A stretch of 13,572 bases of DNA from a virus. Lineage: Duplodnaviria > Heunggongvirae > Uroviricota > Caudoviricetes. The notes beneath the pieces are model-generated. The model saw nothing but the letters and a program-made list of their open reading frames with translations. It ran no database searches and was not told where the DNA came from. The translations under genes were made by a program, and so were the position numbers. The DNA is taken from the IMG/VR virus record IMGVR_UViG_2703719354_000003; one strand, given 5' to 3'. Of this stretch, positions 6,343-7,225 are shown piece by piece (position 1 is the stretch's first letter; every line of letters begins with the position of its first letter).

Positions 6343-6384
6343 ATCGATAAACCGATTGACGGGTGAAATCGGTAAACCTATTAT
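6343..6384 (+). promoter_or_regulatory. Promoter TTGACG-17-TATTAT with overlapping operator-like repeats (pL-like)
   Basis: -35 TTGACG 6356-6361, 17-bp spacer, -10 TATTAT 6379-6384; ATCGATAAACCGAT (6343-6356) is a near copy of the 14-bp core of the switch-region palindrome (5548-5561); second inverted repeat ACCGATT-n9-AATCGGT (6351-6373) spans the -35 and spacer. Confidence 0.5.
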
Positions 6385-6433
6385 CTTGACATAGGTATCG
6401 AACTCACCAAAGCAATTATAGAGGATGAGAAAA

Positions 6434-6844
6434 ATGTCATCGTATATGGGATTACCAACAAATCAGCACGATGCTCTTGAGAATATTCAGCTCTTAGTAG
6501 GGACTGGTGCACTACTGTATAGCAGCAATAACCCTGAGTTAATTGAACTTGCCAGCTCCATCCTGGCTGTAACTCAAAAATATAGCCTCACCGCGTCACG
6601 TTTATGCAAACAAAATTTAGCTATTAATTCCCAGAATCGGATTCGCACCCAACGCGAAACCTGCGGCTTAACAACCGCCGAACTCGCTAGGCTGCTCGAT
6701 CTCGATGAAGAAATTATCATCCAGTGGGAGAGCGGAGAGTACGAACCAACCATCAGCATGCTTATCCCTCTGGCTAATGTTCTTGGCTGTGATCCAATGT
6801 TGTTATTGACTGATGCTTATAAACAAAATCAGGAGGAAGCATAA
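6434..6844 (+). CDS. Hypothetical protein with C-terminal XRE-type HTH (136 aa)
   Basis: C-terminal RIRTQRETCGLTTAELARLLDLDEEIIIQWESGEYEPTISMLIPLANVLGCDP resembles an XRE HTH; N-terminal about 70 aa unassigned; GAGGA RBS 8 nt upstream of ATG 6434 (the ORF-track start 6425 lacks an RBS). Confidence 0.65.
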   Translation: MSSYMGLPTNQHDALENIQLLVGTGALLYSSNNPELIELASSILAVTQKYSLTASRLCKQNLAINSQNRIRTQRETCGLTTAELARLLDLDEEIIIQWESGEYEPTISMLIPLANVLGCDPMLLLTDAYKQNQEEA

Positions 6845-6845
6845 G

Positions 6846-7037
6846 ATGAAAATGTTCAAAGGCCTTACCAACGAACCGGAGACAACTTTTCATCACATTG
6901 CCGTACTGCTTGAAGCGGGGTTAATCATTTCGGCTTCCGGTGATGAAGAATGTGATGAACTTTCGGATGATATCTTTTTACTGGCACAACAATACGCCAG
7001 AAGCGCATGCGATGCATTTAAGGAGCAAAGAACATGA
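6846..7037 (+). CDS. Small acidic hypothetical protein (63 aa)
   Basis: AGGAGG (6831-6836) 9 nt upstream of ATG 6846; start lies 1 nt after the upstream stop; acidic composition. The ORF-track start 6813 is an upstream extension. Confidence 0.5.
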   Translation: MKMFKGLTNEPETTFHHIAVLLEAGLIISASGDEECDELSDDIFLLAQQYARSACDAFKEQRT

Positions 7038-7225
7038 AAACTCCATTAAATATTCTTGAGGAAGTGGCAGCACAAATAAAAGAGAATACATCAATGCTTG
7101 AATTTATATTTAAGAATTCGCCCGACTCAGGAGAGACAGACGATTATTTATGTTGCCTCATTCGCTCCATGAATAAAACCTGTGAAATGGCTTACGCGTA
7201 TATCGACACACTGCGCAACGAATAA
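7034..7225 (+). CDS. Small acidic hypothetical protein (63 aa)
   Basis: ATGA start/stop overlap with the upstream gene; AGGAG (7021-7025) 8 nt upstream; acidic, Cys-containing. Confidence 0.5.
   Translation: MKTPLNILEEVAAQIKENTSMLEFIFKNSPDSGETDDYLCCLIRSMNKTCEMAYAYIDTLRNE

What the first reader, a model, noticed from the sequence alone, without database searches (positions are those of the whole stretch)
6343..7225. Repressor-adjacent three-gene operon (C-terminal-HTH protein plus two 63-aa acidic proteins) under a strong operator-bearing promoter
This sits where lambda carries rexAB and where lambdoid phages often carry accessory or defence cargo, or it may be the first part of the pL-like operon. 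It has a near-consensus promoter overlapped by operator-like repeats, and the genes are tightly coupled (1-nt gap, then ATGA). The first protein has an unusual architecture, with an unassigned N-terminal domain and the HTH at the C-terminus. Small acidic proteins early in phage operons are frequently DNA-mimic or anti-defence factors. The block also appears AT-richer than the replication genes by eye.
Basis: partly seen in the sequence, partly recalled or inferred. Interest (0 to 1): 0.65.

Follow-up and report, generated by a model that had tools for sequence, protein, structure and literature searches.

The report
Phage early regulator with free-standing domain copies
The three genes are real and open the repressor-controlled early-left operon of an E. 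coli phiP27-like prophage: a DNA-binding-type regulator followed by two small proteins that are stand-alone copies of its own N-terminal helical hairpin, an arrangement that probably lets the small proteins tune the regulator, though this has never been tested.

Summary
A 10/12 sigma-70 promoter (6356-6384) lies between two 17-nt repeats whose core also occurs twice between cI and cro. It drives P1 (6434-6844), P2 (6846-7037) and P3 (7034-7225), joined by a 1-nt gap and an ATGA overlap. No terminator follows until after int, so these are the first genes of the pL-type operon, not a rexAB-like cassette.

P1 is a predicted N-terminal two-helix hairpin plus a C-terminal XRE helix-turn-helix. The HTH is conserved across heteroimmune E. 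coli prophages. The hairpin comes in at least 8 sequence types that match the CI type one-to-one in 94 loci.

New here: P2 and P3 are free-standing homologues of such hairpins (P2 to types A/B, P3 to type G). In 91 of 94 loci P1 is followed by a free hairpin gene. P2 and P3 are under purifying selection (dN/dS 0.21 and 0.10).

Best reading, inferred only: a SinR/SinI-like regulator-plus-mimic module. Against a strict cognate pairing, the downstream hairpin genes reassort freely with P1 hairpin types. No defence, toxin-antitoxin, N, CII or CIII homology was found. I rate it a new variant of a known kind, of moderate interest.

The parts
6308..6334 (+). Intrinsic terminator ending cI transcription (GCCCACTCTTAAGTGGGC followed by a T-run)
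   Evidence: 7-pair stem, 5 GC pairs, T9 tail. It separates cI (5597-6289) from the block.
6341..6357 (+). Operator-like repeat 1 (AAATCGATAAACCGATT). It contains the 14-bp ATCG-N6-CGAT palindrome at 6343-6356 and abuts the -35 hexamer
   Evidence: The CGDTAAAC core is shared with the cI-cro intergenic region (5529, 5558).
6356..6384 (+). pL-type sigma-70 promoter: TTGACG (6356-6361), 17-nt spacer, TATTAT (6379-6384)
   Evidence: 10 of 12 matches, the best in 5150-8300. Loci of other immunity types have an equivalent promoter with their own OR-shared repeats.
6366..6382 (+). Operator-like repeat 2 (AAATCGGTAAACCTATT), lying in the spacer and overlapping the -10 hexamer
6434..6844 (+). P1, 136 aa (alternative start 6425): the first early-left gene, a hairpin plus XRE-HTH regulator
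   Evidence: (phrog_4836). The AF2 model has mean pLDDT 78.6.
6434..6640 (+). P1 N-terminal two-helix hairpin domain, sequence type A (aa 1-69), the hypervariable part linked to immunity type
   Evidence: AF2 helices 11-29 and 34-76, pLDDT about 90. It hits phrog_4587, the P2 family. At least 8 types track CI type one-to-one. DNA similarity to heterotypic phages starts at about 6641.
6641..6815 (+). P1 XRE/HTH_3 domain-coding segment, conserved at 76-98% nt identity across heteroimmune prophages; it is the mosaic joint
   Evidence: (P22 C2 N-terminal domain, rmsd 0.9 A, 32% identity).
6846..7037 (+). P2, 63 aa, AGGAGG ribosome-binding site: a free-standing hairpin paralogue related to P1-family N-domain types B and A
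   Evidence: E 1e-7 and 1e-5; hhalign 95% and 79%. AF2 hairpin with pLDDT 85.8. dN/dS 0.21.
7034..7225 (+). P3, 63 aa, ATGA overlap with P2: a free-standing hairpin paralogue related to N-domain type G (P0094)
   Evidence: phrog_6882; E 1.4e-8; hhalign 96%. dN/dS 0.10. It always co-occurs with P2.
5529..5565 (+). OR-side copies of the operator core (CGTTAAAC at 5529, ATCGGAAAGCCGATAAAC at 5548-5565) between cro and cI, given for context

Best explanation
Shown:
- The block is the head of the CI-controlled early-left (pL-type) operon of an N-less, phiP27-like lambdoid prophage of E. coli.
- P1 is an XRE-family helix-turn-helix protein. Its N-terminal domain is predicted to be an antiparallel two-helix hairpin.
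- P2 and P3 are free-standing paralogues of that hairpin domain. They are translationally coupled to P1 and to each other.

Inferred:
- After induction or infection, CI leaves the two operators and the promoter fires.
- P1 dimerises through its hairpin, probably as a four-helix bundle, and binds a DNA target that is conserved among heteroimmune phages.
- P2 and P3, alone or as a P2:P3 pair, associate with hairpin domains and so modulate P1 oligomerisation and activity.
- This is the logic of SinR/SinI, or AimC/AimX in arbitrium phages, where a small protein mimics a regulator's oligomerisation domain.
For: pL identity:
- There is a terminator after cI, then a 10/12 promoter with two repeats whose core is shared with the cI-cro region.
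- Other immunity types show the same layout with their own OR/OL-shared repeats.
- No strong + strand terminator-like site (only a weak one at 11189) and almost no promoter-like site lies before the end of int.

P1:
- HTH_3 scores 40.8 bits.
- The AF2 model has hairpin helices 11-29 and 34-76 at pLDDT about 90, followed by an HTH that superposes on the P22 C2 DNA-binding domain (rmsd 0.9 A, 32% identity).
- Relatives carry 1 to 3 tandem XRE domains after the hairpin.

Paralogy:
- The P1 N-domain hits the P2 PHROG family at E 4e-6.
- The P2 HMM hits type B and type A N-domains at 1e-7 and 1e-5. The P3 HMM hits the type G N-domain at 1.4e-8.
- hhalign gives 95%, 79% and 96% for the same pairs.
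- A nearly gapless 71-column alignment has an invariant Tyr and a shared apolar pattern.
- The P2 AF2 model is a hairpin with the same helix boundaries, pLDDT 85.8.

Conservation of the arrangement:
- 91 of 94 loci have a free hairpin gene within 900 nt after P1.
- P2 and P3 keep the 1-nt gap and ATGA overlap at about 75% identity. Their dN/dS is 0.21 and 0.10.

Precedent:
- SinI mimics the two-helix hook of SinR and forms a four-helix-bundle heterodimer that abolishes DNA binding (PMC3163267).
- AimX/AimC are described as SinI/SinR-like in phages (bioRxiv 10.1101/2025.11.23.689978).
Against: - No interaction was tested.
- The downstream hairpin module does not co-vary with the resident P1 hairpin type. 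P2+P3 occurs with types A, B, C, D, F and H; the alternative 66/121-aa hairpin gene occurs with types A, B, C, D, F, G and one unclassified type. This is not what a strictly cognate antagonist predicts.
- P3 and type G cannot be linked by sequence to the type A hairpin of this P1.
- P2 and P3 are co-transcribed and coupled with P1. SinI is regulated separately from SinR.
- The P1 HTH half is strongly acidic (13 D+E against 4 K+R) and has Glu-Glu at the start of the recognition helix.
- No conserved operator for P1 was found. DNA binding is therefore assumed, not shown.
Confidence: 0.45

Rival explanations
1. P2 and P3 do not act on P1. Like its N-domain, they bind a common third party. For example, they could be decoy substrates or inhibitors of a host protease that recognises the hairpin, as lambda CIII protects CII from FtsH. 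Alternatively they could bind another host factor.
For: Free reassortment of downstream hairpin modules with P1 hairpin types fits a partner that is not type-specific. The N-terminal motif (F/Y-x-G-L/F-...-P-x-D-A) is conserved in both free and fused forms. These phages lack CII and CIII homologues (PMC8044961 reports the same for Eru1 phages). The genes sit in the early-left operon, where lambda carries cIII.
Against: There is no homology to CIII or to any protease inhibitor. No candidate partner was identified. The idea is purely positional and analogical.
Confidence: 0.2
2. The P1 hairpin is an immunity-specific protein-interaction module that contacts the cognate CI or Cro, making P1 an anti-repressor or co-regulator. 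It would not be merely a dimerisation domain, and P1 may not bind DNA.
For: Hairpin type and CI cluster correspond one-to-one in 94 loci covering 8 types. The HTH is nearly invariant across immunities. The HTH half is acidic, with Glu-Glu in the recognition helix.
Against: The correspondence is expected from physical linkage alone. Only about 350 bp of non-homologous DNA lies between cI and the joint. P1 retains the Arg-rich helix 1 (RIRTQRE) and the Q-W-E-x-G motif of P22 C2. Relatives with 2 to 3 tandem HTH domains look like DNA binders.
Confidence: 0.1
3. The free hairpins are weapons against other phages. They would form dead-end hetero-oligomers with the P1-type regulators of co-resident or superinfecting phages that carry a different hairpin type.
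For: In this window the resident type is A, while P2 is closest to type B and P3 to type G. E. coli genomes can hold up to 3 P1 loci. The hypervariability of the hairpin is compatible with an arms race.
Against: The operon is predicted to be silent in the lysogen. Type C phages carry a type C-like free hairpin themselves. Identities to any fused type are only 20-35%.
Confidence: 0.1
4. One reading: P2 and P3, with P1 as their regulator, are accessory cargo. They could be DNA mimics or anti-defence proteins, a toxin-antitoxin pair, or an exclusion system at the rexAB position.
For: The proteins are small, acidic and early. P2+P3 is one of two alternative modules at this position, so it is somewhat cargo-like. 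The region is AT-rich.
Against: PADLOC, Pfam and NCBIfam give nothing beyond a generic HTH. The homology is to a regulator domain. A terminator and a CI-operator promoter separate the block from cI. The AT-richness is shared with cI.
Confidence: 0.1
5. P2 and P3 are non-functional remnants of recombination between immunity modules.
For: The region is mosaic, with a joint inside P1. Frameshifted and chimeric variants exist in databases.
Against: dN/dS is 0.21 and 0.10 at dS 0.72 and 1.2. Ribosome-binding sites and coupling are conserved. The P3 cluster is seen on more than 1000 contigs.
Confidence: 0.03

Closest known systems
SinR/SinI (and SlrR/SlrA) of Bacillus subtilis
   Same: Both have an XRE-type HTH regulator carrying a two-helix oligomerisation module, plus an adjacent small protein of about 60 aa that is a sequence homologue of that module. 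In SinR/SinI the two form a four-helix-bundle heterodimer that abolishes DNA binding (PMC3163267).
   Different: - The domain order is inverted: the hairpin is N-terminal here.
- The helices are longer (about 20 and 30 aa).
- No sequence or fold match to SinR or SinI was detected.
- There are two small paralogues instead of one.
- They are co-transcribed and translationally coupled with the regulator, not separately regulated.
- The small proteins do not co-vary with the regulator's hairpin type.
- No interaction has been demonstrated.
AimC/AimX repressor and small anti-repressor of arbitrium Bacillus phages
   Same: Both are phage lysis-lysogeny modules in which a small helical protein is proposed to block oligomerisation of an XRE-like repressor. 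The authors themselves compare it to SinI/SinR (bioRxiv 10.1101/2025.11.23.689978).
   Different: The host and phage lineage differ. No homology was tested or detected. Here the regulator is an early-left gene under CI control, not the main repressor.
Lambda early-left operon (N, cIII) and P22 gene 24
   Same: The position is the same: the first genes after pL/OL, next to cI, transcribed towards int.
   Different: P1 is an acidic HTH protein, not an arginine-rich RNA-binding antiterminator. There are no Pfam hits to N, CII or CIII. A CIII-like decoy role for P2/P3 is only an analogy.
P22 C2 / 434 repressor DNA-binding domains (HTH_3, PF01381)
   Same: The P1 C-terminal domain is a bona fide member of this fold. 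It gives rmsd 0.9 A over 62 residues and 32% identity to the P22 C2 N-terminal domain, and shares the IxQWExxxxEP motif.
   Different: There is no S24 peptidase domain. The oligomerisation hairpin is N-terminal. The recognition helix starts Glu-Glu, and the domain has a net charge of about -9.
PHROG families 4836 ('CII-like regulator'), 4587 and 6882 (unknown function); phiP27 L10; phi467 'DicA'
   Same: P1, P2 and P3 are members at E 2e-50, 7e-33 and 1e-40. The phi467 trio is 96% identical at the DNA level.
   Different: These are annotation labels without experimental basis. None records the paralogy between the small proteins and the regulator's N-domain.

Membership tests
XRE / Cro-CI HTH_3 regulators (PF01381) | HTH_3 domain above the Pfam gathering threshold | tested here: met
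   40.8 bits against a cut-off of 23, aa 73-124 of the 139-aa reading.
XRE / Cro-CI HTH_3 regulators (PF01381) | Five-helix 434/P22-type fold | tested here: met
   The AF2 model superposes on P22 C2 (3jxb) at rmsd 0.9 A over 62 columns, TM 0.87 normalised to the target.
XRE / Cro-CI HTH_3 regulators (PF01381) | Sequence-specific DNA binding | not testable with these tools
   No operator was found. The domain is acidic with an EE-start recognition helix, so binding is assumed only.
SinR/SinI-type regulator plus oligomerisation-domain mimic | Regulator combines an XRE HTH with a two-helix oligomerisation module | tested here: met
   Hairpin helices 11-29 and 34-76 followed by the HTH. The domain order is inverted relative to SinR.
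SinR/SinI-type regulator plus oligomerisation-domain mimic | Adjacent small protein homologous to that module | tested here: met
   P2 against types A and B: E 1e-5 and 1e-7, hhalign 79% and 95%. P3 against type G: E 1.4e-8, hhalign 96%.
SinR/SinI-type regulator plus oligomerisation-domain mimic | Common ancestry with the SinR/SinI hooks | tested here: not met
   Profile searches of the PDB and Foldseek return no SinR or SinI match. The resemblance is an analogy, not family membership.
SinR/SinI-type regulator plus oligomerisation-domain mimic | Heteromer formation that changes regulator activity | not testable with these tools
   No multimer prediction or experiment was available. The lack of co-variation argues against strict pairing.
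SinR/SinI-type regulator plus oligomerisation-domain mimic | Antagonist expressed under separate control | tested here: not met
   A 1-nt gap and an ATGA overlap, with no internal promoter.
Lambda N-type antiterminator | Small basic protein with an arginine-rich motif; N family domain | tested here: not met
   pI 4.40. No N-family hit in Pfam, NCBIfam or PHROGs. nut sites were not searched.
rexAB-like lysogen-expressed exclusion or defence cargo | Co-transcribed with cI in the lysogen; homology to a defence system | tested here: not met
   A terminator at 6308-6334 and an own promoter bearing CI-type operators. PADLOC gives only generic HTH hits. Expression itself was not measured.
Lambda CII / CIII | Pfam CII or CIII family membership | tested here: not met
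   No hits at E up to 0.1. The PHROG label 'CII-like regulator' is annotation only.
Type II toxin-antitoxin (HTH antitoxin plus toxin) | A partner with a recognisable toxin family or fold | tested here: not met
   P2 and P3 have no Pfam, NCBIfam or PADLOC hit and are hairpin paralogues of P1. A ParE-like ORF exists elsewhere in the window, at 7956-8174.
Aca-Acr (anti-CRISPR) operon | Homology of the small proteins to known Acr families or of the HTH to Aca families | not testable with these tools
   No Acr or Aca library was available. Nothing in Pfam or PHROGs suggests it.

The most novel reading that the evidence does not exclude
The hypervariable hairpin would be a second specificity layer of phage immunity that co-evolves with CI. 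The free-standing hairpins would be dominant-negative 'microproteins' that act across phages, poisoning the early regulators of heterotypic prophages or superinfecting phages. That would be a new kind of inter-phage interference in polylysogenic E. coli, including Shiga-toxin strains.
Probability: 0.1. Interest if true: 0.8.

Novelty: new variant of a known kind. Interest (0 to 1): 0.5.

Why it matters
- phiP27-like prophages, including some Shiga-toxin phages, lack lambda N, CII and CIII, as has also been reported for Eru1-type Stx phages. How they run the early programme is unknown, and in Stx-carrying relatives toxin output depends on that programme.
- This analysis identifies the first early-left genes as a conserved unit of a regulator plus copies of its own domain. 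About 7% of complete E. coli genomes carry it (372 of 5426).
- It gives a concrete, cheap hypothesis to test: hairpin-hairpin association controlling an early regulator.
- It also offers a clean natural example of within-gene mosaicism at a domain boundary, and of bacterial or phage 'microproteins' derived from a transcription-factor domain.
- It cautions that two-HTH proteins next to cI may have been taken for atypical CI repressors ('Clade VIII' in PMC8951638). I did not verify this.

Tried and rejected
- Pairwise BLASTP of P1 against P2 and P2 against P3 found nothing. Only profile methods revealed the paralogy.
- hhalign could not link the P3/type G group to the A/B/C/P2 group. 'One superfamily' is therefore not claimed for P3.
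- Profile searches of the PDB with hairpin alignments returned only designed helical repeats.
- Foldseek of the P2 model against the PDB and BFVD gave no significant match. Foldseek of P1 matched only through the HTH.
- PADLOC, NCBIfam and Pfam gave no defence, toxin, N, CII or CIII assignment.
- Searches for a conserved P1 operator failed. These compared 5' regions across immunity types and looked for short palindromes in left-arm intergenic regions.
- Rfam found nothing in the block.
- Literature searches found no functional study of phiP27 L10 or its relatives.
Complex prediction was not possible.
- An exhaustive HMMER search with the hairpin profile found only 53 clusters, all hairpin-only or hairpin-plus-HTH proteins apart from two long multi-stretch hits that were not examined. 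No link to a characterised family emerged.
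Full report
**Context**

The window is an E. coli prophage of the phiP27 group. It is 99.8% identical over 5400-7410 to a region of E. coli E110019. The three genes (not the promoter or the first part of P1) are 96% identical to Escherichia phage phi467.

The gene order on the minus strand is a Q antiterminator (628-1029), a primase (1877-2845), an SF2 helicase (2847-4505), a gene at the cII position and a YdaS-type cro (5190-5477). 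On the plus strand come an HTH+S24 CI repressor (5597-6289), the block in question, about 4.5 kb of small genes, and the integrase (11683-12861). With cI on the plus strand, plus is the 'leftward' direction of lambda.

**Checking the observation**

- After cI there is a strong intrinsic terminator (6308-6334). Then comes TTGACG-17-TATTAT at 6356-6384, 10 of 12, the best promoter-like site in 5150-8300.
- Two 17-nt repeats (6341-6357 and 6366-6382, 88% identical) bracket the -35 hexamer and overlap the -10 hexamer.
- Their core, CGDTAAAC, occurs twice more between cro and cI (5529 and 5558). The window has 5 copies against 1.3 expected, and none of 200 shuffles reaches 5. A 14-bp ATCG-N6-CGAT palindrome is shared too. 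These are therefore CI/Cro-type operators and the promoter is the pL equivalent.
- In five loci of other immunity types, P1 is likewise preceded by non-coding DNA that shares its own type-specific repeats with its own cI-cro region, and several show a strong promoter there.
- P1 (6434-6844), P2 (6846-7037) and P3 (7034-7225) are separated by 1 nt and by an ATGA overlap. All are acidic, with pI 4.4-4.5.

Two corrections are needed.

- No + strand terminator-like site follows P3 until a weak one at 11189, and the first strong one is at 12874, after int. Only one weak promoter-like site occurs in 7000-13572, against 10 expected. The three genes are therefore the head of a long early-left operon, not a closed operon.
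- The low GC (0.426 against 0.514 for the replication genes) is shared by cI (0.426) and the following gene (0.406).

**What P1 is**

The C-terminal half of P1 is a canonical HTH_3 domain (40.8 bits). P1 belongs to phrog_4836 (E 2e-50).

The AlphaFold2 model (37-sequence alignment, mean pLDDT 78.6) shows an N-terminal antiparallel hairpin followed by the five-helix HTH. The hairpin helices span residues 11-29 and 34-76, with pLDDT about 90 over residues 20-50. Only the HTH finds structural relatives, best the P22 C2 DNA-binding domain (rmsd 0.9 A, 32% identity).

The family is small and essentially confined to E. coli (155 clusters at 90% identity). The HTH-coding DNA is found in 372 of 5426 complete E. 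coli genomes. Many members are 213-244 aa and carry a second HTH copy. More distant relatives carry up to three.

The HTH is almost invariant, with 26 invariant columns in 37 sequences. The preceding 60-90 residues fall into at least eight unrelated-looking sequence types, A to H; the window is type A.

DNA similarity between the window and heterotypic phages starts at about 6641, exactly at the hairpin/HTH junction, and often ends near 6795-6815. The hairpin-coding part is 54-62% identical between types, which is alignment noise. The HTH-coding part is 76-98% identical. The HTH segment is thus a mosaic joint inside a gene.

**What P2 and P3 are**

Pfam, NCBIfam and PADLOC give nothing for either protein. 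They belong to PHROGs of unknown function.

The decisive clue came from PHROGs. The N-terminal 56 residues of P1 hit the P2 family, phrog_4587, at E 4e-6. Follow-up gave these results.

- An HMM of P2 homologues hits the N-domains of type B (E 1e-7) and type A (1e-5) regulators, colinear from residue 4-9 to about 60.
- An HMM of P3 homologues hits the N-domain of the type G regulator P0094 (E 1.4e-8, residues 1-64).
- Profile-profile comparison gives 95% (B with P2), 79% (A with P2), 96% (G with P3) and 94% (A with B).
- A 71-column, nearly gapless alignment of P2, types A, B and C, and the free 66/121-aa proteins has an invariant Tyr and a common apolar pattern.
- The AF2 model of P2 (pLDDT 85.8, pTM 0.67) is a hairpin with helices 11-30 and 34-62, the same boundaries as in P1.
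- The P3/type G group could not be joined to the A/B/C/P2 group by sequence.

Both small genes are real. Against relatives 73-79% identical, dN/dS is 0.21 for P2 (dS 0.72) and 0.10 for P3 (dS 1.2). The coupling geometry is preserved.

**The arrangement is a rule**

I analysed 94 loci: 80 from IMG/VR plus loci fetched by exact protein. Many are near-identical, but they cover 8 immunity types.

- P1 always follows an upstream CI-type repressor gene and its intergenic region.
- In 91 of the 94, a free hairpin gene lies within 900 nt downstream. The three exceptions are L062, L071 and L073. Of these, L062 ends at the contig end about 100 nt after P1, and L073 has an ORF resembling an IS transposase just downstream.
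- Two alternative modules occur and never together. One is P2+P3 (26 loci). The other is a 66- or 121-aa protein whose hairpin resembles type C (65 loci), sometimes with an 80-aa protein.
- Hairpin type and CI cluster correspond one-to-one (8 types, no exception).
- The downstream module reassorts freely. P2+P3 is found with types A, B, C, D, F and H. The 66/121-aa gene is found with types A, B, C, D, F, G and one unclassified type. Type C regulators are themselves followed by the type C-like free hairpin.
- An exhaustive HMMER search of 1.84 billion representatives with the hairpin profile found only 53 clusters. Those examined are free hairpins of 60-90 aa or hairpins fused to one to three XRE domains.
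- No solved or predicted structure library gave a significant match.

**Mechanism**

Shown:
- The position and control elements of a pL operon.
- An XRE-fold protein with a predicted N-terminal hairpin.
- Two selected, translationally coupled free paralogues of such hairpins.
- The near-universal pairing of regulator and free hairpin gene.

Inferred:
- The hairpin is a dimerisation module. A lone two-helix hairpin with about 55% apolar residues in helix 1 cannot bury its core.
- P1 binds a DNA site common to heteroimmune phages.
- P2 and P3 associate with hairpin domains and modulate P1. This is the logic established for SinR/SinI, where SinI mimics the SinR two-helix hook and the four-helix-bundle heterodimer cannot bind DNA (PMC3163267). 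It has recently been proposed for AimC/AimX in phages (bioRxiv 10.1101/2025.11.23.689978).

I put this at about 0.45, for four reasons.
- No interaction could be tested.
- Free reassortment of modules argues against strictly cognate pairs.
- The small genes are co-expressed with P1 rather than separately controlled.
- The P1 HTH half is unusually acidic (13 D+E against 4 K+R, with Glu-Glu at the start of the recognition helix), and no P1 operator was found.

The rivals are:
- a shared third-party partner, including a CIII-like protease decoy (0.2);
- an immunity-specific protein-interaction role for the hairpin (0.1);
- cross-phage dominant-negative interference (0.1);
- non-functional remnants (0.03, contradicted by dN/dS).

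**Comparison with the known, and novelty**

By membership, P1 is an HTH_3/XRE protein, and the trio belongs to uncharacterised PHROGs. It is not a member of the SinR/SinI family. No sequence or fold relation was detected, the domain order is inverted, and the expression logic differs. It may nevertheless work like it.

It is not N, CII, CIII, RexAB, a recognisable toxin-antitoxin pair or a known defence system. I found no paper on the function of phiP27 L10 or its relatives. Work on Stx-phage regulatory regions notes that Eru1 phages lack N, CII and CIII (PMC8044961). The same group describes an atypical 'CI' with two HTH domains and no peptidase (PMC8951638). That protein may be a long-form P1, but I could not verify this.

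The paralogy between the small early proteins and the regulator's N-domain appears undescribed. I classify the finding as a new variant of a known kind, of moderate interest (0.5). It is a testable entry point into early regulation of N-less lambdoid and Stx-related phages, not a categorically new system.

Noticed in passing
window 7956-8174 (+), with neighbours 7769-7984 and 8171-8563: A GTG-start 72-aa ORF carries a ParE-like toxin domain (PF24732, 62.7 bits against a cut-off of 24.4). It overlaps the end of the 71-aa gene (phrog_340) and the start of the 130-aa gene (phrog_1886). The same ORF is called in related prophages.
   Followed up: partly
window 7308-7406 (+): A 32-aa ORF (MKNRSAYKTALLMANAGYWSVAILFLRKAYGK) lies in the 'non-coding' gap after P3. 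It has conserved 37-aa counterparts (MTF[IL]KN.AS.KTACLIAQ...LRKAYGR) at the same position in about 45 related loci. A minus-strand terminator-like hairpin (7333-7356) lies inside it.
   Followed up: partly
window 1-78 (-): Rfam match to the sRNA STnc100 (48.7 bits against a gathering score of 47), cut by the window edge. It lies downstream of the Q antiterminator gene on the minus strand.
   Followed up: no
window 8624-9636 (+): A 62-aa predicted membrane protein is followed, with an overlap, by a 275-aa SPFH/Band_7 lipoprotein-like protein (PF01145, 1e-30). The pair is also present in phiP27 (L05) and other relatives, and looks like a moron in the left operon.
   Followed up: no
P1 relatives P0002, P0039, P0069 (213-230 aa); P0189, P0195 (333-347 aa): Most P1 relatives have two tandem XRE domains and some have three. 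The window's single-HTH form looks like a deletion between the repeated GCDP(L/M)xLL motifs. The 'Clade VIII CI' of PMC8951638 (two HTH domains, no S24) may be this protein rather than a repressor.
   Followed up: partly
window 12903-13538 (-) and protein P0123: A database protein from a 1.6-kb Logan contig joins the first 26 residues of this 211-aa ORF (beyond int) to residues 14-63 of P2. This suggests an assembly chimera or a rearranged prophage.
   Followed up: no
L012 and L013 (IMGVR_UViG_2681813321_000026, 3640-11813 and 13608-21781): One 24-kb viral contig holds two copies of the type A P1 locus about 10 kb apart. This could be tandem prophages or an assembly duplication.
   Followed up: no
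window 7000-13572: The left arm has only 1 promoter-like site at 9/12 or better, against 10.0 +/- 2.9 in shuffles. That is a marked depletion, consistent with one long transcript from the 6356 promoter to the terminator at 12874.
   Followed up: no
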